In this document: piece after piece, positions 19,900 through 30,986 of the stretch | Layout of the letters: every line of letters begins with the position of its first letter | How positions within the stretch are numbered: the stretch's first letter is position 1 | Assembly: GCF_000372725.1 (NCBI RefSeq) | Contig: NW_005201202.1 | Location: forward strand, 186,001 to 250,000 | Origin: Emiliania huxleyi CCMP1516 | Taxonomy: Eukaryota | Length of the DNA stretch: 64,000 nt | Direction of reading: 5' to 3' | Notes under the pieces: generated by a model | What the model was told of the DNA's origin: nothing | The model's database searches: none | What the model saw: only the letters and a program-made list of their open reading frames with translations | Program-made: the position numbers and the translations under genes

Positions 19900-20949
19900 T
19901 CAATCCCCCTTTTCTCTCCCAGCTGTCGCCGGCCGGGTCGATGGCGTCATGGAGAAGCAAGTGCTTCCCACGAGCACCGCCGCGGCTCCGGCCCAGAGCG
20001 TGGGCGACGAGCGAAGCGAGGTGTCGGGCGAGAGCAGGAGCACAGAGGCGACGAATGCGAGGAACTTTTGGAGCGTGAGAACGAGGGTGGTGTGGAGCGC
20101 GCCGGAGCGCTCAATCAGTCGCGTGCAGATTAGCTTGCAGCAATAATCAAAGACGAGGTTTGCCGCCAGGAGCACCCACATGCCCGGCCATTGAACGCCA
20201 CCAACGTGAGGGCCGGACCAGCTGGAGGCATGCTCGAGGGCGCGTCCACCACCGCGCAGCAAGAGGATGGGCAAGCCGAGGATGTTGCGAAAGAATATCA
20301 TCTCCTCTGCGCTGGCGCGCGTGCCGCCTGGGAGGCGCGCAAACGCCCGCTCCTGCATGCAGCCCGTGACGGCGCGCAGCAGCAGCGCCACCGGAAGCAG
20401 CGCCACCCCTGTCCAGAGCCCTCCAGCCACGTCGCTGCGTGTTGGCGCTGACGCCCCTGCTGTCCCAGACATGGCCGTGAGCACCAAGCCGACGCTGGTG
20501 AGGCCGATGCTGAGCAGCTGCGGAGCAGAGTAGCGCCTGCCGAGGAGGAGGGTGCCGACCACGGCGTTTGCCACGAGCGAGCCATTCTTGAGGGTCGTGA
20601 TCACCACGACGGGAAGCGGCGACGCGAGGGCCTGGTTGAGCAGCAGCGGGTAGCAGACGGTGATGAGTGCCAGCAGCAGGTGCGTCTGCACCGGCACCGT
20701 CCACTCGGGCTGCCGCAGCGCGGTTGGGGCAGCGAGCAAGAGGCCAAACGTGGCTTCGCTGGTCGAGATCAGCCCTCCGCAGCCCCTGTCTACCGAGTTG
20801 AGGGCGTCGTACGGCCACTGGCACAGGCAGGCGCAGAGCACGAGCGCCCCGGAGAGCAGCAGGGAGCCGGAGAGCCAGGACGAGGTCGCCGCCTCCTCCG
20901 CCGCCACCTCTGCCTCGTCGGCCACCGCGGACTGCGGCTCCTTCTCCAT
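19900..20949 (-). CDS. Nucleotide-sugar transporter (UAA family, SLC35B4/YEA4-like)
   Basis: Intronless multi-TM ORF from MEKEPQ with LLNQAL..LPV....LKNGSLVAN..G..LLGRRYS..Q, GCMQE, EMIFF, TLVLTLQKF. Confidence 0.85.
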   Translation of the reverse strand: MEKEPQSAVADEAEVAAEEAATSSWLSGSLLLSGALVLCACLCQWPYDALNSVDRGCGGLISTSEATFGLLLAAPTALRQPEWTVPVQTHLLLALITVCYPLLLNQALASPLPVVVITTLKNGSLVANAVVGTLLLGRRYSAPQLLSIGLTSVGLVLTAMSGTAGASAPTRSDVAGGLWTGVALLPVALLLRAVTGCMQERAFARLPGGTRASAEEMIFFRNILGLPILLLRGGGRALEHASSWSGPHVGGVQWPGMWVLLAANLVFDYCCKLICTRLIERSGALHTTLVLTLQKFLAFVASVLLLSPDTSLRSSPTLWAGAAAVLVGSTCFSMTPSTRPATAGREKGD

Positions 20950-21551
20950 TGCAAACGCCCGCCGCAGCCTCCCGCCGCTGGGAAGGGGCGAGGAGAGGCG
21001 CTGCGTGGCCCGCAGAAAGGCAGGCGACGGCACCAGCTCGTGCCGCCCATCCAGCAGGTCGACGGCCAGTGCCGCCGCCCGACGCCACCGCTCCCACGCC
21101 TCGCCATGCAGGCTCCCCAGCTCGCCGCGGCTCTCGGAGCCGATCACAGAGGTGGCGTGGAGGAGCGTGGGCGGCGGCGGCTTCCGCCGCGCCTGGGGTA
21201 CGAGACCCACGGAGTGGCTGTGGCGGAGCATTGGCCAGCCCTCGCTGGGCGACCCAAATGGCGACGCCCAGCGCGTCGGCCGGCGCGTCGTACGTCCTTT
21301 CGAAGTTCAGCGGGAAGAACTCTTGCCGAAAGTTAAGGCGTGGTCGACGTTCCGCGCTGTGTGTCGCGCCTGAGCTCGCCCTTGCCGCTCGAGGCTACCC
21401 GGGAACCACAGACAGCATCAAAGGACACGCTAGATGTGCTTGTGACTGACGCGTCTCTCGTGAACGTGATTGATCGCGGCCGGCACGAGCAGTGCTGTGT
21501 GCGGCGCTCGCCAATGGCGATTGTGCTGGACGGCGGACGGTGTGGTTGCTC

Positions 21552-22094: not shown

Positions 22095-22475
22095 CGTACT
22101 ACTTTTAGCTTACTGGGAGAAAAGGGAGAGGGGGGTATGTGGCTCTTACGTACATTCCCGGACGGAGGAGGACTGCTGACGGGGTTTGCGATGAGGGAGC
22201 GTCGAGCGATCCGAACGTGGCATTTGGGTGATCAGATCACTCCGACCGCCGAAACGCAAGAGCACTGCGACGCATCGGGCTCATGCTAGCATCCACCTCG
22301 CGGGCCGATCTTCTTGCCCAGCGAGGCTGCCGCTGCGGGGACACCCGCGGCGGCTCGGTTCGCTCCTCAACGCACAACGCAAACTCGGTCGAGCAGAATT
22401 TCACCACGAAACTCCCTCTCACGACAACACGGGGCACGGGACTGGCGCGCACTGGCACTAACACAGGTACACCGC
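22095..22475 (-). mobile_element. Longest copy of repeat family A, fused to a CRE-like 3' tail
   Basis: About 22165-22450 is the reverse complement of about 36030-36345; 22097-22134 is the reverse complement of the ttttctcccagtaagctaaaagta tail at about 7685-7712. Confidence 0.75.
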
Positions 22476-22559
22476 GAAAGGAAAGAAACACTTGGGGGCA
22501 ACCAAGGTCTGATAAAGAGAAAGATAGCCATATTTAAAGAAACACATGGATTTAAGAGG

Positions 22560-22613
22560 AAAAAGAAAGAAAGAAAACGGACAACCCAAGGGAGGGATGG
22601 GAGGACGGCACGG
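22560..22613 (-). repeat. Repeat family C (GTGCCGTCCTCCCATCCCTCCCTTGGGTTGTCCG plus (TTTC)n tail)
   Basis: Other copies at about 30756-30808, 31951-32003, 51906-51945 and a partial one at 55738-55760. Confidence 0.85.
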
Positions 22614-22744
22614 CTTAAGAGAGACCCTGACCACGCAGAGCTTTTTTCTTTTTCTCAAATTGCCGAGCTTAGGAATCCCTCTACGCGAGACTAGAGTGGG
22701 GTCTCACGCCCTTACTAGAGGCCTGCTCGCCGAGCTCTTGGCTC

Positions 22745-25700
22745 ATGGATCATGACCCAGTCCGCCGCCCATCGCTGAGCATCGCGGACTTTGCCTTCTG
22801 TGGCATGCTCGGGGAGGGTCAGTTCGGCCGCGTCATGATGGCGAGGAACACCCGAACGCAGGACATCGTCGCAGGCAGCTACACACGACTGCCCTCACTG
22901 CCAGGCCGTCCCTTCCCTGTGCTAACTTTCGGTCTTCCCCTTCCCTGTGCAGTCAAAGTGCTGCGCAAGCAGTTCCTCGTCTCCAAGGGCGCCCGCACCA
23001 TCTCTGCCGCCATCTCGGAGAAGCAGGTGCTGCAAGAGATGGCGTCGAAGCGCCACCCGTACATCGTCTCGCTGCTGCACTCCTTCCAGGACGAGGCGCA
23101 CCTTTACCTCATCATGGACTTTGTCGGCGGCGGCGACCTCTTCTCTCTCATCGAGAAGAAGGGCCGCCTGCCCGAGGCGTGGGCCATCACTTACTCCGCG
23201 GAGATCGCGCTGGCGCTGGCGCACGTGCACTCGCACGGGATCGTGTACCGCGACCTCAAGCCGGAGAATGTGATGGTCTGCATCAGCGGCCACCTCAAGA
23301 TGACCGACTTTGGGTTCGCCAAAAAGATGGAGGGAGCCGCGACGCGCGGCAGCTGCGTGGGCACGCCAGAGTACATGGCGCCGGAGCTGCTCAAGGGCGA
23401 GGTGTACGGCGTTGGAGTCGACTGGTCGCGCGCTGCCTGGCGCGAGGTTGCAGCCTCGGGCCATCTTGCGTGATCTCGGCGGCACCTGGCGGGTAGGTGG
23501 ACGCTCGGCTGCCTGCTGTACGAGATGGTCGTCGGCCGAGGGCCGTACTCGAACGACGACCTGCAGCTTCTCGTCAAGGCGATCACGACGGAGGAGCCCG
23601 TCATCCCTTCCGGCGTCTCGCAGCCCTGCCGCGACGTGCTCGGTTGCTTTTTGCAGCGAGACACGCGGAGCCGTTCTCGGAAGCGTGGAACTTTCCCATA
23701 GGTCGTCGGCGGCTTGATGCAGCGAGACACGAGCGCGCGCTGGACCGGCGGCCGGCCGCGAGACGAGCTTTGCCGGCAGGTTGATTCGGAATGACTCCTT
23801 CTCAATCATTGCGACTTAGGCGATCGGCTGCGGGGCGAGCCTTTCTACCGCGAGCTCGATTGGGAGGCCCTCTACCGCATGGAGGCGCCTCCGCCCACCC
23901 TGTCCTTGTCCCTGACCCTGACCCAACCCCAACCTATGGAGGCTCTATACTCTGTCGCATGGAGGCTCTATACTCTGTCGCATGGAGGCTCGATACTCTG
24001 TCGCATGGAGGCTCGATACTCTGTCGCATGGAGGCTCGATACTCTGTCGCATGGAGGCTCGCCCCCACACTCCGGTCCAGGAGGGGAGCCTCCCGGAGCC
24101 TGCTCGGAACCTTCCTAGGTGCCTCCGCCCTACACGCCGGTCCAGGACGAGGCCGCCGCCTCCCGATTTGCGGTCGAGCTCTGCTCCACACAACAGTTGA
24201 CCGACGCGATTACTTCGTAGGCCGCGCCTCTCGACTTGCGGTCGAGCGACTCGGCGGGCGCGGCGCGGCTACAGGCGGAGTTTGGCGGCGTCTGGTCGTC
24301 GGGCGAGGGGGGCGCGGGGGGCGTGGGAGGCGGCCAGGCAGCGAGCAGCAGCGGCGGCAGCAGCAGCTTCGGCAGCAGCGGCGGCAGCAGCGGCGGCAGC
24401 AGCGGCGGCAGCAGCGGCGGCAGCAGCGGCTGCTCCGGTGCCGTCAGTTCGAACCCGATGGTTGCCGAGCAGAGCGCGAATTTGGCGCTCTCGCTCGAGC
24501 TGACAGCGGAGGGGGACATCTGGCGGTGCTCCAACCCGCTCGCCCTCCTCCTCGGCACACCGCGAGGCCAGCGCCACCTCCTCTTTGGACTCCGTTTGCT
24601 GCAGCCGACGCGCGACACTCCGCCCTTTGTCGACCCGGAGACACTTGCCCCCTTCGCCGCCGCTTTCGAGGCGATGCTGCGACGGCTGCGGCACGAGTCG
24701 TCTCGCGCGGGCGCAGAGAGTCAGACTCCGACCGAGGGGCTGCTGCGCGTGCATGTGGGCCGCGACGAGCCGCTCCACTTGCGGTACTCGTTCGAAGAGA
24801 CGACCCGGCTGACGGACCACTCGGTGGCGCTGCAGCCGATGCACGAGGGGCACGCGGCGGTGACGGTGCTCTTTACGGACGTGAGCGCGGGCGAGGCGGC
24901 CAAGGAGTTGGTGCGGAGGAGGTACGAGCTGAGCTACAACTTGCATGGCGAGCAGCGGATGCGCGGCGACGACGCGCAGGTTGCGGCGCTCGTTGGCTCG
25001 TTGTCCGTGTGGTGACATGTCGGTGAGGGAGGTGGTGGAGCGCCATGATCAGGTCGCGGCACTCTTCGGCGACGACTTCTCTTTCAACCGCGCCGGAACG
25101 CAGGCGCCGCTGCACGAGGGCAGCGCGAGCAGGTCCGGCCTCGCAAACCACCTCGAGACTGAGAGTGCACTCTGAGTCACGAGTCATTGATTGCTCAGGT
25201 CCGGCCTCGCAAACTACCTCGACCGGCGCGCGCTCTTCGTTCGAGCTTTCCCCGACATCCACTTTCAGATCCTCGAGCTCTCGGCGATGGGCGAGCGAGT
25301 CGTCACCTCCTTCCACTGGACCGGACCGCACACCCCGGACCGTGCCTCGCCCGGCCATTCGTTGAGCACTCACTCATGAATGGTCAGTACTAGGCACTCA
25401 CACCGGCCCGTACCATGCCGAGATCGACGGCGAGTTCCGCGACATCTCCCCGACCGGCGCGCGGGTCTTCGTCTACGGCATCGCCAGCGACACCATCCGC
25501 GGCACCAAGATCGTCGACCACGCCGCCTACTACGACGCGGCGGCCATCGTGCGCCAGCTGCTGCCGAAGGGGTCCAAGGGTGAGGGTGCGCCACCGAGCC
25601 CCGCCAAGCGGCCGTCGACGGACTCGGACTTTGCCGAGGCGCGCGGGATTCCGACGAGCGACCAGGCCGACGAGACGGAGCGGGCGGCGAGGGAGCAGAT

Positions 25701-27182
25701 GCAGCGTTTCTTCGCCGACAAGGCGCCGCAGCTCGAGATGAACCGAGATTGGCCACCGAGATTGGCCGAGACTACCCGAGATCAGTAGATGCAGCGATGC
25801 TTCGCCGATTGTGGCGCCGCAGCCCCCTCTCTGATTAATCGATACCCAATGACTGATCAGGTGCCGCAGCTCCTCGCGACGGCGAGCGACGTCGGCATCG
25901 CAATCTGCGGCAGCGGCGGAGAGGGCGAGGCGGCAGGCGAGGGCGGAGCTCTGCCGATCGCAGTCGGATGTGTGTCTTGCGCGCGGGTGCTCGGGGGCTG
26001 CAGTCGGCGGAGCAGTGCCTCGGCGTCTGTCTAGCCAGTTGAGCAATACTCCACTAGGCGCTGGGGCTGCAGTCGGCGGAAGAGTGCCTCGGCGTCTCCC
26101 TCGTGTCGCATTTGGGCGCCAGCGCTGCCGCGGACGTGCAGCCCGACGTGGCAGAGTGCCTCGCCGCGCTGGCCGGGGCCGCTAAGGCGGCACGTCCGGC
26201 ACAGCTCCTGATCTTCGCGCGGCACCCGCTCGCAAGTGGGCTGACTGACGATCCTTGTGTTGGCTCAGGCGCAGCACTTGATCGCAACGCGGCGGGCGAG
26301 CGGAAGCACCGCTCTCTTACTGGCCAGCACAGCGCCGTTCGAGGTTGATGGGATGCGCCTGACCGCCGTGCTGCTCGTCGACGTGACTGCCGACCCGAGC
26401 TCGCCTCACGCCATCTCGGAGGCGGCTGCCGCGGTCTCGCACCCGTACTGCATGCGTGGTGCGCTGCTCCACGCCCCTCCCCGCCTCTTCACACTTCCGA
26501 ATGATTCAGACCGCGCTCTCTCTCTCTCCAGGTGCGCTGCTCAACGGCCTCTCCTCGCGACCGGGCTCCGCCTACTCCCCTCTCCTCTACTCATTTCGCC
26601 AATCGACTGATTAGGCCTCTCGCGATCAGGCTCCGCCTCGGCCTTCTGCGCGCGCCTGCTGACCGCGGCGGTGCAGTGTTGGCGCGACGTGGGCTTCAGC
26701 CTCGCCGACAACGCCACGCCCAATAAGGCGATGGTGTGGGTGTCGGACGGCTTCGTCGCGATGACGGGGTGCTCACGCTCGCCGGTTGTAAACTGATCAC
26801 CGGTGGGTCATGATTGAATGTTGAGTGTGTTAGGTACCGGCGCTCGCAGATCGTCGGCCGGAGCTGCAAGCGGCTGCAGTGCGAGGCGACGGACCCGCAC
26901 TCCATCCTCCGCCTCGGCGAGGCCATACGCGCGGGCCGGGGGGAGCGGGTGACGCTCTGGAACGCCACCGCGAGCGGCGGAGGTTTTTGGAATTGCGTAT
27001 CGGTGCATCCGAGCCGGAACGGGCGGTACTTTGTCGCGGCGCAGGTTCGCGTCGGCGCGGCCCTCAACCGACGGATGGCGGAGCTTTTGCGCTCGATCGA
27101 CCGGAGCCGCCTTCTTGCCTCGGGCAAGAGAGGTTTGACGCTTGGTTCTAACTTGGGGAACTGCATGGGCCGCCTTCCATGA
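22745..27182 (+). CDS. Multi-exon AGC Ser/Thr kinase - PAS-like - SnoaL-like - PAS - LOV protein (candidate blue-light receptor kinase)
   Basis: Kinase: LGEGQFG, AVK, YRDLKPEN, DFG, GTPEYMAPE, DWWTLG, AGC tail LDWEALYRMEVPPPYTP. SnoaL: KELVRRRYE, AFPDIHFQI, WTGTHTGP, PTGARV, KIVDH..YYD. LOV: FSLAD...VWVSDGFVAMTGYRRSQIVGRSCKRLQ..TD..LWN..FWN..YFVAAQ. TGA at 27180-27182. Confidence 0.8.
23935..24061. repeat. Intronic 23-bp tandem repeat
   Basis: (atggaggctc(t/g)atactctgtcgc) about 5 times; resembles the preceding exon end cgcatggaggc. Confidence 0.9.
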
Positions 27183-27740
27183 CATGAGCGTTACTACGGC
27201 CCTTTAGAGCCTAGCGTATGGGCCCCGCTCCCGGATGGCGATATTGTACGTTGCATGACACGAGTGTAGAGCCGTGTAGCATGGGGAAGCAAAGCGGGGT
27301 GGAACTGGTGATAGCTGATAGCGTAAAGTGAAGCGTTCGTATCTCGCAGCTCGCGTGTTGTCTTTTTTCGTGTGACTGTGTGTTCTCTCTCTTTTACCTC
27401 TCGTGTCTCGACGAGAAAGGAGAATACACGCGACGCGATCGACTGGGAGGTGGGACTCCAACAAGTATGTTGGCGAACTATATACATTGCCGGAGCGCCA
27501 AGCTCCAAAACATCACACCAAGACGTGCAGGGCGGGGACACATGTCCCTAAATCCCATCTCGTCTCAGAGTTTGAGGTTTGACCGTTTATTTATTTATTT
27601 ATTTATCCACTTTTTTGGAGGGATCGCCCCGGGCCGGCACGCGGCGGGTCTCACACACAATCGGGTGTCTCTCGGGCGCCGGCGTCTCTCCGTCGTGCCG
27701 CCCTAGGACGAGAGGACGCAGCGTCGAGTCAGCGCCAGTT

Positions 27741-30133
27741 TTAGACGTAGGCTTGGTTGTCGCACACGCCGCCGGAAAAGGAGCGGAACTTGTACATGTG
27801 GATCCAGTAGTTGACGCCTACGCGCCATGGCTCCGGGAGGCGTCCGGGGAGGGTCTGTCGGGACGCGTGCCTGTGCGATCGGCGCAGTGGACGCCGAACT
27901 TGACGCCGGACGTCACTGGCAGCGACTCGTGGTCCGTGCGGTCGTCGCGCTGGTACGGGTCCGAGTCGAGCACCTGCGGGAAGGTTCCGAGAAGGTTCGG
28001 CTCGGGAAGGCCCATGTGCGCGGTGGGTCGGAGTCGAAGTCCGAGGCCAAGACGCAGGCGGCCCCCTCCTTGGGAGTCTCGGAAGTGTCTCGGAAGTGTC
28101 TCGGAAGTGTCTAGAAAGTGACCGAGGTCCAGACGCAGGCGGCCCCCTTCTTGGCCGGGATGGTGATGTTAAGCCTAGGGTGAATTGCCCGCCGTAAGGG
28201 CTCCTCCTCCGCCCTTGGCGGGGATGGCGACGCCGAGCCTCGGGAAGTGGGTCTCTCCGCCCGTGTAGCTGTTGTGGTCGCCGATGTACATGAAGACGGT
28301 GAACATGCGAGGCCCCCAGGCAGAGGAGCGCGGAGAGTTTTGGTCGTGGTGCACCCTGTAGTACTGGCCCGTCTCGTAGCGCAGCACCTGCCCTCGGGAA
28401 GAGGAGATGTAGTCGCCGAGATGAGCCGAGATGTTGCCGAGATGTAGCCGAGATCGAGCCGAGGTTGCCCGTCAGCACCTGCATCGGCTCCGCGTTGTCC
28501 ATCGGTATCCCGCCGAGCAACGACGACACGCGCTTCTCGATCGCTTGCACGGTTGGGTTTCGGAGGCAAGAGCCCTTGCACCTAGCAGGAGCCGACTCGT
28601 TGACGGGTCCGCAAACTCGAGGGTGAGTCGAGCCAGGAGCACTCGCACCACGCGGTGGAAGAGGTGCGGGCCGACTGCACGCCGTCCCCCGCCTGAGAGC
28701 GCTCGAAGCCGGAGCCTGCTAGAGCCCCGGCCTTGAGGATCTCGTCGGCCTGCAGGCGAGGGTTGGCCATCGTGAGGACTCTCTCTCTGACGGGCGTGAG
28801 GGCTGCGGCAGCCTCGTCGGAGGTCATGAAATCCTCGATGAGGAGCACCTGTTCACGGCGCGAGGCGTGAAGAGACGCCGCTCACAGCCGGGGCTTGCCA
28901 ACGCCTCGCTGAGGAGAACCCACGGCTCGCGAGATAGCATCGTCGTGCCGGGCTGCTCCGCCGCGATCCTCCCGAAGATGCGATCGACTGAGCCCGGCAC
29001 CGCAGCGGGCTCGGCGTTGACCCCGCGCGCGCACTGCGGCCGATCGAACCGATGCTCCTAGCGATGCATCAGCAGCGGGGTCCACTGGCGGAGCCGCGCG
29101 CACTGAGAGGCGGGTCGAGCCGGCCCTCCTTGCACGCGCCGCACGTCCACGCGCAATGCTCCACCAGCTCGGGCATGGAGTAGCAGTTGACCTAGCGGTG
29201 CAAGCCCTCGCTGACTGGTTGACTCGTGCTCCGCCAGCGCGAGGAGGGGAGCAGCAGCGGGGAGCGGCAGCGAGGAGGGGGGCGGCAGCGAGGAGGGGAG
29301 CGGCAGCGGGGAGGAGAGCGGCAGCGGGGAGGGGAGCAGCAGCGGACCGACTCGCTGTAGTTGGACTCGGGTCCGCCGCGGCACCGCTCCGTGCAGTCCG
29401 CCCACTCGTCGCGGCACGTCGCCGACTGGCACATCTTGCATGTGACTGGGCACTGTGTCAGCATGTACCTGAGAAGAGAGTAAAGGATCAGAATCATAGT
29501 GGCACATCTTGCACTTGTTCGGGCATGAGTATGGTACCCAGGGTTGGACTGGCACTCGCCGATGGCAGCCCACGTGGCGCACATCCTGTTGACGTCCTCG
29601 CACGCCTCCGCCTTCCGAGGCTTTGGCTTGCCTAGGGCCAGGGCCAGGGCCAGGGTCAGGGTCTGCTCAGGGTTTGCCTGCTCTTGCTTCGGGCTGCCTC
29701 CGTCGCAGACGTGGCACGACGCGCGGCAGCGCTTCTGCATGTACTGCTCGTTCTTGAAGCACTCACCGCTCTTCGCCCACGTCTCGCAGTTCGAGTCCTC
29801 GTCCACGCACCCGGGATCACCGCCCCTGACCGCGCCTCGCCGCGCCGCCTCAGGCACCTCGATGCCGTCGCGGTCGAGCGCCGCAATCACCGCCTCGTGC
29901 GCAGACTTTCCGCGTGCGCCCGCGGAGCCGTCGCCCTGGCCGGCGACCGCGCCCTCTCTCCGCTCCGGCGGAGGCTGCAGCGGGTTTGAGAGCCAGCCCG
30001 GCAGAATCGTTGCCGCGAGCGCGCTCGAGACTGCCGCCGCGACCGCGATGGTGGTAAAGTGCTTGTCGGCCTTGCGCTTCGCCGACGGCGGCTTGTGCTG
30101 CTGCGCCTTGCTGCCGCCCTTGGATTTGCCCAT
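27741..30133 (-). CDS. Prolyl 4-hydroxylase with N-terminal TM segment and ShKT domains, multi-exon
   Basis: ShKT: CVDEDSNCETWAKSGECFKNEQYMQKRCRASCHVC and CEDVNRMCATWAAIGECQSNPGYMLTQCPVTCKMC. P4H: RTSSTAW, EPMQVLRYETGQYYRVHHD, GGETHFP, HESLPVTSGVK. Confidence 0.92.
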
Positions 30134-30986
30134 GCGGAGCACACTCCGCTCGACTTCCCTACAGCGGCAAACTAGCCTGCGTAATTTTTTTCTTTCTCTT
30201 GTCCCCTTTTTTCGTGTCGAAACGGGTAGTTTCTACGGAAGTGGGCGCAATAAGTCGCTTCATGTCCGTGTGTGTGCTCCCGAGGAGTGTGGACAGGCGT
30301 TGCAGGACGCGCCGCGCCGCCGCGGGGCTCACGTGCGGACCGCCGTGAAGCGGGTTGTTTGACTAATGTCGCACATGTTGGGAGACTGATGGGTCAAAAG
30401 CATAGATCGTCAATCGACGCGTCGCGCCTTTGCCGATCCGCATAGTGAGGTTCTTGGGTGGCGCGCCCCAGCTCTTCCCAGCTCTTCACAACGAAACCTT
30501 GTTCTTTCACGCGAGCCTATCCGCCCGCCGCAGACGAAACCTTGTTCTTTCACGCGCTGGCCTATCCGCCCGCCCCCGATGTCCGCCGCGAAGCGGCCGC
30601 GCCGCGCCGCAACCGTTCCACTCCATTTTCAGGACCAGGCGGTGCCCGACACCACCGCCAATGCAGCCAGCAGTGGAAGCGCGGAACACCGGCATCAAGG
30701 CGACGTGCCGGTTCTGCAACCTCCGCAACTTGGTGGTCAGCTCCGTGAGCGGAGCGTGCCGTCCTCCCATCCCTCCCTTGGGTTGTCCGTTTTCTTTCTT
30801 TTTTTCTTTGGCGCATCCCTCCCTTGGGTAGTCCTATCGTTTATTTCTTTTTTTGGCGCGCACTGGCACTACCGGCTAACCGGCAACACAGGAAAGAGGA
30901 AAACCGAGGCGGCAAAAATCTTTCTTGAAGGGTCCTCATTCTCTCGAGAGCTTTCTACTTTTCATTCGTCCCCTCCGGGCTGAGGC

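What the first reader, a model, noticed from the sequence alone, without database searches (positions are those of the whole stretch)
22745..27182. Candidate new photoreceptor: AGC kinase - PAS - SnoaL - PAS - LOV in one spliced gene (reversed phototropin)
Seen: the ORF track fragments this locus, but manual splicing gives an apparently continuous frame. It runs from an intact AGC kinase through a Ser/Gly linker, a degenerate PAS (about 24490-24890, ending TVLFTDVS), a SnoaL/NTF2-like domain (about 24895-25560) and a second PAS (about 25860-26395, ending LLVDVT) to a C-terminal LOV domain. The LOV is split by intron 26769-26833 (VSDGFVAMTG|YRRSQIVGRSCKRLQ) and keeps the Cys (26865-26867) plus Gln, Asn (LWN), Asn (FWN) and the terminal Gln (AAQ). 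Established: LOV domains use GRNCRFLQ, with the Cys forming a flavin adduct in blue light; phototropins are LOV-LOV-AGC kinase and aureochromes are bZIP-LOV. Inference: kinase-first, LOV-last with an embedded ligand-pocket domain is an architecture I do not recognise. It could integrate blue light and a small-molecule signal. A few internal junctions are uncertain.
Basis: partly seen in the sequence, partly recalled or inferred. Interest (0 to 1): 0.9.

Follow-up and report, generated by a model that had tools for sequence, protein, structure and literature searches.

The report
Haptophyte kinase-first blue-light receptor family
A spliced algal gene joins a protein kinase to two PAS domains, a pocket-forming SnoaL domain and a LOV domain in one 1,050-residue protein that is shared across haptophyte algae, and it likely acts as a so far undescribed blue-light-switched kinase.

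Summary
Observation confirmed. Transcript-type contigs define 15 introns that give one stop-free 1,050-aa frame at 22745-27182. One contig runs from the kinase exons across the Ser/Gly repeat into SnoaL. Five other protein clusters carry kinase+SnoaL+PAS_9 in one ORF, the closest at 51% identity. Both 'degenerate PAS' calls hold: PAS-A by fold, PAS-B by predicted topology and profile match to the LOV. The LOV model matches EL346 LOV at 1.2 A. It keeps Cys, Gln, Asn, Asn and Gln but has lost both phosphate-binding Arg residues, so photoactivity is likely but unproven. It is not a rearranged phototropin: the kinase has DFG, a short activation loop and its own clade. The SnoaL domain lacks three SnoaL catalytic residues, so a binding or scaffold role is more likely than cyclase activity. 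The public Emiliania huxleyi model starts at Met375 and omits the kinase. In the papers searched, the full architecture appears only as unlabelled rows in a 2021 supplement; SnoaL+LOV was noted as uncharacterised in 2026. Verdict: a new, haptophyte-wide variant of LOV Ser/Thr kinase; light control of the kinase is inferred.

The parts
22745..27182 (+). Whole gene: 16 exons, 15 introns, 1,050-aa ORF (kinase-PAS-SnoaL-PAS-LOV)
   Evidence: joints; translation
22790..23848 (+). AGC-type Ser/Thr kinase domain, aa 16-272: Gly loop, Lys45, Glu66, YRDLKPEN (Asp144), DFG (Asp162), Ser177 in the activation loop, APE
   Evidence: Pfam Pkinase E 7.6e-47 and 2.3e-5 on two pieces; motifs; tree
23849..24301 (+). 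AGC C-terminal tail (aa 273-322) with a PxxP stretch and a conserved F-x-x-x-W hydrophobic-motif-like end (Phe316, Trp320)
   Evidence: conserved in relatives; reading it as a hydrophobic motif rests on recalled AGC knowledge
24338..24430 (+). 12-bp tandem repeat (7.7 copies) coding the Ser/Gly linker; most assemblies break here; copy number differs in whole in-frame units
   Evidence: contig of run X3 is 24 nt shorter; P0305 and P0310 are 12 aa shorter
24458..24460 (+). Met375, where the public model EMIHUDRAFT_440938 (XP_005788094.1, 684 aa) starts, leaving out the kinase
24482..24883 (+). PAS-A, aa 383-516, no flavin motif; no Pfam hit
   Evidence: AF2 pLDDT 80.5; VIA Z 12.2, rmsd 2.7, 102 aligned to RpfR PAS; PAS chains fill the Foldseek list
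24896..25560 (+). SnoaL/NTF2-like domain, aa 521-672; the most conserved part of the sensory tail
   Evidence: Pfam SnoaL E 1.6e-7 and 4.3e-6 on two pieces; 43 of 155 positions at least 80% conserved
25678..26388 (+). PAS-B, aa 712-855 with N-terminal helix; degenerate LOV-like PAS without the Cys motif
   Evidence: PAS topology in AF2 model; profile match to the family's LOV, probability 91.6%, E 8e-7; Pfam PAS_4 E 0.0047
26532..26546 (+). 15-nt micro-exon between PAS-B and LOV
   Evidence: resolves joint 26472-26614 and reproduces P0001
26677..27059 (+). LOV domain, aa 905-1010, split by intron 26769-26833; Cys946 (26865-26867), Gln950, Asn978, Asn988, Gln1005 (27042-27044)
   Evidence: Pfam PAS_9; EL346 LOV E 4.9e-18; rmsd 1.2 A to 4r38; Z 19.7 to 1n9l
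27063..27161 (+). Predicted C-terminal (J-alpha-like) helix and tail; the tail after aa 1027 differs between alleles
   Evidence: helix predicted on P0001; 4-base insertion after 27110 in 2 of 4 runs gives the tail of P0001/P0311

Best explanation
The locus encodes one 1,050-residue protein, an AGC-type Ser/Thr kinase followed by PAS, SnoaL-like, PAS and LOV domains, that likely works as a blue-light-regulated kinase. Inferred steps: (1) the LOV binds a flavin, possibly riboflavin or loosely held FMN because both phosphate-binding Arg residues are gone; (2) blue light forms the Cys946-flavin adduct and moves Gln1005; (3) the flanking helices shift and rearrange the SnoaL/PAS-B/LOV unit, which is predicted to be compact; (4) the change passes through PAS-A and the flexible linker to the kinase, whose activation-loop Ser177 and tail motif set activity; (5) the SnoaL pocket likely binds a small hydrophobic molecule or dimerises the protein and so tunes the light response, rather than acting as a SnoaL-type cyclase.
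For: Shown: one stop-free spliced frame; a contig bridging kinase exons to SnoaL; whole architecture in single ORFs of five other clusters, P0280, P0282, P0285, P0007, P0297/P0040, and in three named MMETSP rows (two Isochrysis galbana, one Gephyrocapsa oceanica); all catalytic kinase motifs intact. Cys946, Gln950, Asn978, Asn988 and Gln1005 are kept in 7 of 7 closest relatives whose LOVs are only 51-63 of 105-106 identical. Predicted: LOV fold 1.2 A from EL346; pTM 0.84 over SnoaL(part)-PAS-B-LOV. EL346 has Ala at the second Arg position (alignment), holds riboflavin and forms a Cys adduct (PMC13690264, passages). Established: Cys adduct and Gln relay (PMC8086140, passages).
Against: Four departures from the LOV consensus: Ser945 (Asn in 156 of 174 other LOVs), Lys947 (Arg 162, Lys 4), Arg948 (Phe 159), Gly963 (Arg 115, Gly 11). 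EL346 keeps the first Arg; this protein loses both. More distant relatives lose the terminal Gln (P0007, P0285) and P0147 lacks the Cys, so the family tolerates photochemical decay. About 630 residues and three domains separate LOV from kinase, unlike the roughly 50-residue linker of phototropin. Only 1 of 7 runs laid bridged the repeat. No biochemical data exist.
Confidence: 0.55

Rival explanations
1. One protein, but this copy's LOV is photochemically weak or dead. The kinase is controlled by a ligand in the SnoaL or PAS pockets, by redox or flavin occupancy, or by dimerisation.
For: Both phosphate Arg lost and Phe replaced by Arg. SnoaL is the best conserved tail domain, 43 of 155 positions against 29 of 136 for LOV. 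Some relatives lost the Gln or Cys.
Against: Cys, both Asn and both Gln are kept in 7 of 7 closest relatives while neighbouring positions drift.
Confidence: 0.25
2. The main product is a kinase-less PAS-SnoaL-PAS-LOV protein starting at Met375, as in the public gene model; the long form is minor.
For: EMIHUDRAFT_440938 and P0311 start at Met375. 6 of 7 runs showed no contig across the repeat. Some relatives (P0141, P0291) show little or no kinase match.
Against: The kinase contigs run in frame into the repeat with no stop. Run X3 bridges it. The named E. huxleyi MMETSP fragment begins inside the repeat, upstream of Met375. Five clusters are full length.
Confidence: 0.1
3. The SnoaL domain is a light-regulated enzyme and a second output; the kinase acts in parallel or controls it.
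For: Conserved polar residues (Arg584, Arg585, Asp649, His659, Asp664) could be catalytic. IdmH lacks the SnoaL Asp and His yet is proposed to be an enzyme (PMC6830212, passages).
Against: By transitive alignment through P0264 and IdmH, SnoaL Gln105, His107 and Asp121 map to Gly645, Ala647 and Ala661; only His119 (His659) is kept. The neighbours seen are a UAA transporter and a 2OG-oxygenase/ShK gene, not polyketide genes.
Confidence: 0.1

Closest known systems
Phototropin (LOV1-LOV2-AGC kinase of green plants and algae)
   Same: LOV plus AGC-type Ser/Thr kinase in one chain; a tandem LOV-like pair (PAS-B resembles the LOV); nearest ESM Atlas clusters, score 0.96.
   Different: Kinase first; one Cys-bearing LOV; extra PAS-A and SnoaL; DFG instead of DFD; 27-residue activation segment against 57 in Arabidopsis phot1 (PMC8086140); separate clades for kinase and LOV.
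EL346 LOV histidine kinase (Erythrobacter litoralis, PDB 4R38/4R3A)
   Same: Best solved match to the LOV by sequence (E 4.9e-18) and rmsd 1.2 A; also lacks the second phosphate Arg; binds riboflavin.
   Different: Bacterial histidine kinase with an N-terminal LOV and a canonical GRNCRFLQ motif.
Haptophyte LOV clade C.4 ('C-LOV') of Coesel et al. 2021 (PMC8017926, Datasets S3C and S6A)
   Same: This is the same family: it holds the 684-aa E. huxleyi fragment with motif GRSCKRLQC and full-length Isochrysis, Phaeocystis and Gephyrocapsa relatives.
   Different: Labelled only 'LOV'; SnoaL has 0 occurrences in the main text and the section on domain structure does not describe it. The two extra PAS domains are not in the domain rows read.
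SnoaL+LOV (PMC13737086) and 'LOV-NTF2' (bioRxiv 2025.06.20.660589)
   Same: Both note a SnoaL or NTF2 domain with LOV in algae; the 2026 row is a Phaeocystis metatranscript.
   Different: No kinase or extra PAS mentioned in the passages read; no function tested. Whether the preprint's protein belongs to this family could not be checked (table is an image, supplements closed).
PAS kinase (PASK) of animals and fungi
   Same: PAS domains regulating a Ser/Thr kinase; next ESM Atlas clusters, score 0.95.
   Different: N-terminal PAS, CAMK-group kinase and no flavin photochemistry (recalled).
SnoaL polyketide cyclase
   Same: Pfam SnoaL above the curated cut-off (59.4 against 28.4 bits for P0001); His119 position kept.
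   Different: Gln105, His107 and Asp121 positions are Gly, Ala and Ala; embedded in a signalling protein.

Membership tests
Phototropin | Two LOV domains N-terminal to a C-terminal kinase | tested here: not met
   Order is kinase-PAS-SnoaL-PAS-LOV with one Cys motif
Phototropin | Kinase with DFD motif and long activation loop, in the phototropin clade | tested here: not met
   DFG in 10 of 10 family rows, DFD in 11 of 11 phototropin rows; separate clades, SH-aLRT 92 and 100, quick tree of 44 rows
Phototropin | Blue-light-activated autophosphorylation | not testable with these tools
   needs a kinase assay
LOV domain | PAS fold of LOV type | tested here: met
   rmsd 1.2 A over 104 columns to 4r38; Z 19.7, rmsd 1.3, 104 aligned to 1n9l
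LOV domain | Adduct Cys and ring-binding Gln, Asn, Asn, Gln | tested here: met
   Cys946, Gln950, Asn978, Asn988, Gln1005
LOV domain | Exact GxNCRFLQ motif and the two phosphate-binding Arg residues | tested here: not met
   GRSCKRLQ and Gly963. This lowers 'canonical FMN LOV', not 'LOV': EL346 also lacks one of the two Arg
LOV domain | Flavin binding and reversible photocycle | not testable with these tools
   needs spectroscopy
AGC kinase | Intact catalytic motifs, nearest relatives AGC, C-terminal tail | tested here: met
   motifs; named hits are mostly S6K/RSK, with SGK, PKA and PKG; no Pkinase_C hit for the family, so the tail assignment is by eye
PAS domain (PAS-A) | PAS fold | tested here: met
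PAS domain (PAS-B) | PAS fold | tested here: met
   topology, profile match 91.6%, tandem-PAS chains aligned over both domains; not folded and searched alone
SnoaL-type aldol cyclase | Catalytic Asp121 with Gln105, His107, His119 | tested here: not met
   transitive alignment via P0264 and IdmH keeps only His; 1SJW itself was not aligned
Aureochrome | bZIP before the LOV | tested here: not met
   no bZIP hit in Pfam scans

The most novel reading that the evidence does not exclude
Haptophytes independently built their own blue-light Ser/Thr kinase receptor family. It is wired backwards relative to phototropin, a built-in SnoaL pocket makes it a light-plus-metabolite gate, and the Isochrysidales branch uses a phosphate-free flavin. 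This would be a missing kinase-type light input of coccolithophores and Phaeocystis, hidden because the reference gene model cuts off the kinase.
Probability: 0.3. Interest if true: 0.88.

Novelty: new variant of a known kind. Interest (0 to 1): 0.72.

Why it matters
A 2026 review lists LOV kinases for Chlorophyta only (PMC13436692, passages). An E. huxleyi EST study proposed that phototropin-like proteins are the main light sensors of coccolithophores but had only partial clusters (PMC2784329, passages). A conserved, expressed, full-length LOV Ser/Thr kinase gives bloom-forming haptophytes a concrete candidate that can be tested directly. It is a second, independent way of coupling LOV to an AGC kinase, a natural template for a C-terminally light-gated kinase in optogenetics, and a correction to the reference annotation.

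Tried and rejected
No whole genome is held, so paralogues in this genome were not counted; no second copy lies in the window. No holder run is on record as RNA. Contig depths differ between the kinase and 3' parts in some runs, but contig depth cannot rank parts of a gene, so it was not used. Pfam found nothing for PAS-A or PAS-B pieces of the window, and PAS-A did not match the family's LOV or PAS-B by profile; its fold decided the call. Direct searches for solved SnoaL relatives were weak (best E 0.022; 0.036). ESM Atlas gave generic bacterial SnoaL clusters at 0.86, leads only. Whether LOV touches the kinase directly remains untested. The careful kinase tree did not finish; the quick tree is quoted. 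In one search the last three LOV columns were misnumbered and were redone. One search used a wrong start and two wrong junctions and was redone. Diel data for clade C.4 (Prymnesiales RAIN p 0.0018, 6 am peak; five other haptophyte rows p 0.019-1) miss the paper's 0.001 threshold and mix other LOV genes, so they were not used. Glantz et al. 2016 is not held and may list kinase-LOV orders. Three look-ups of earlier scan findings returned nothing.
Full report
Observation. The window holds kinase, SnoaL and PAS_9 pieces on the + strand in the stated order (Pfam on 12 ORF pieces: 2 kinase, 2 SnoaL, 1 PAS_9, 7 without hit). I laid four runs from four studies on 22300-27700; they are guessed to be RNA, not recorded as such. 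They show 13 joints inside the gene, 11 in 4 of 4 runs and 2 in 3 of 4. Two joints hide a short exon each, because the introns start with near copies of the following exon; the predicted mismatch counts (6 and 1) equal those the tool reported. The 15 introns are 22875-22952, 23425-23496, 23636-23701, 23748-23819, 23885-24118, 24152-24220, 24980-25052, 25133-25198, 25324-25393, 25723-25860, 25987-26057, 26199-26268, 26459-26531, 26547-26614 and 26769-26833. All end in AG, and they give one 1,050-codon frame from ATG 22745 to the stop at 27180-27182, with GC3 0.88.

One transcript or two. Most contigs break in a 12-bp repeat at 24338-24430. The kinase contig of run X6 ends about 24399, in frame and without a stop; its partner starts just after. 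In run X3 one 1,882-nt contig carries 821 nt upstream of 23819, exons 5 and 6, the linker (24 nt shorter, in frame), PAS-A and the start of SnoaL. Its upstream part lay outside the laid stretch and is inferred from its length and its loose-end sequence. This is 1 of 7 runs. A contig alone does not prove one mRNA, but homologues agree. P0280 (1,034 aa, 51% identical over aa 10-1023), P0282 (1,103 aa, 42%), P0285 (1,255 aa, 36%), P0007 and P0297/P0040 each hold Pkinase, SnoaL and PAS_9 in one ORF. P0274 and P0278 hold part of the kinase. The public model of this gene, E. huxleyi EMIHUDRAFT_440938, shares the window's C-terminus but starts at Met375 and omits the kinase. I put the single-protein reading at about 0.9.

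Domains. The kinase keeps every catalytic motif and is an RD kinase with Ser177 in the usual activation-loop position (position by recalled PKA comparison). Its named hits are mostly S6K/RSK, with SGK, PKA and PKG. In a quick tree of 44 rows, the 10 rows I grouped as family form one side (SH-aLRT 92) apart from 11 phototropins (100). Six of the nine other family rows (P0005, P0008, P0009, P0011, P0013, P0047) were grouped by kinase likeness only. All family rows have DFG and all phototropins DFD. PAS-A folds with PAS topology (pLDDT 80.5) and matches PAS chains (Z 12.2, rmsd 2.7, 102 aligned). A model of P0001 (part of SnoaL, PAS-B, LOV) has pLDDT 87 and pTM 0.84, which suggests a compact unit. 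PAS-B has PAS topology and matches the family's LOV profile (91.6%), so the C-terminus is a degenerate-LOV plus LOV pair. The LOV matches EL346 best (E 4.9e-18; rmsd 1.2 A). In a FastTree of 200 LOVs on 108 columns, the 12 SnoaL-linked rows fall on one side (93), apart from 23 phototropin LOVs.

Is the LOV photoactive? For: Cys946, Gln950, Asn978, Asn988 and Gln1005 are present and kept in 7 of 7 closest relatives. Against: Ser945, Lys947, Arg948 and Gly963 depart from the consensus of 174 other LOVs. In those seven relatives the two Arg positions vary freely (N, D or R; S, G or R). Roles of these positions (ring contacts, phosphate binding; oat LOV2 equivalents) are recalled. Keeping ring and adduct residues while losing phosphate residues fits a riboflavin-type pocket (inference). 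EL346 binds riboflavin and still forms the adduct (PMC13690264, passages). More distant relatives have the canonical motif but some lose the terminal Gln, and one loses the Cys. I estimate 0.65-0.7 that this copy photocycles.

SnoaL domain. It is the best conserved part of the tail (43 of 155 positions). Aligning through bacterial P0264 to IdmH, and using the residue equivalences in PMC6830212 (passages), SnoaL Gln105, His107 and Asp121 fall on Gly645, Ala647 and Ala661, while His119 falls on His659. So SnoaL chemistry is unlikely. Invariant Asp649 and Arg585, with near-invariant His659, suggest a specific pocket. No ligand is known.

Mechanism. Most likely (0.55): blue light, Cys adduct, helix movement, rearrangement of SnoaL/PAS-B/LOV, change of kinase activity, with the SnoaL pocket as modulator or dimer interface. 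Only the anatomy is shown. Rivals: a light-dead LOV with ligand or redox control (0.25), a dominant kinase-less form (0.1), SnoaL as enzyme output (0.1).

What is in print. Nine searches found no description of the full architecture. 'SnoaL' with 'LOV domain' gave one paper, PMC13737086, which lists SnoaL+LOV as uncharacterised (passages and one supplement row). bioRxiv 2025.06.20.660589 names a 'LOV-NTF2' (passages and part 2 of 4 of the text; its table is an image and its supplements are closed). PMC8017926 (passages, section 8, supplement look-ups) holds the family as clade C.4, labelled 'LOV'. I saw 7 of its 10 NTF2-like rows and checked 5 sequences: 3 carry a kinase, and the other 2 are 5'-partial. 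Named members or fragments come from Isochrysis, Phaeocystis, Gephyrocapsa/Emiliania, Chrysochromulina, Imantonia and Scyphosphaera. Two dinoflagellate rows have a kinase followed by PAS with no NTF2 hit, so kinase-first order alone is not unique. Its Fig. S3 carries several 'pkinase' labels whose clades I could not place. Subscription papers, including the 2016 LOV survey, were not available.

Verdict. Real, expressed and conserved across prymnesiophyte haptophytes. It works like a phototropin if photoactive but is not a member. New variant of a known kind; interest 0.72.

Noticed in passing
window 25324-25393: The only AG-ending reading of this joint (4 of 4 runs) has a GA donor (GA-AG intron); the public model uses another donor and adds residues. 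The runs may come from other strains.
   Followed up: partly
window 23636-23701, 23748-23819, 25133-25198, 26199-26268, 26459-26531: These introns begin with near copies of the next exon (19-24 of 30 bases), which suggests intron gain by tandem duplication.
   Followed up: partly
window 22875-24220: All six introns of the kinase part have lengths divisible by three (8 of 15 overall); intron 1 has no in-frame stop.
   Followed up: no
window 27110: A 4-base insertion in 2 of 4 runs shifts the frame after the LOV and gives a different, 9-residue-shorter C-terminus (1,041 aa), matching P0001/P0311.
   Followed up: yes
window 23936-24061: 23-bp tandem repeat (5.5 copies) inside the 234-nt intron; short contigs of run X2 cover it, suggesting some intron retention or pre-mRNA.
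   Followed up: no
window 19900-21306 (-): Divergent upstream gene: UAA nucleotide-sugar transporter (Pfam E 4e-33).
   Followed up: partly
window about 27740-30232 (-): Convergent downstream gene with ShK-like and 2OG-Fe(II) oxygenase domains, probably a prolyl 4-hydroxylase.
   Followed up: partly
window 22300-22620: Very high contig depth and many loose ends upstream of the gene: probably a dispersed repeat.
   Followed up: no
proteins P0007, P0285, P0147, P0040/P0297: Relatives vary the photochemistry: canonical motif without terminal Gln, no Cys, or a more LOV-like second PAS. A Gephyrocapsa oceanica row with a different kinase N-terminus suggests a paralogue.
   Followed up: partly
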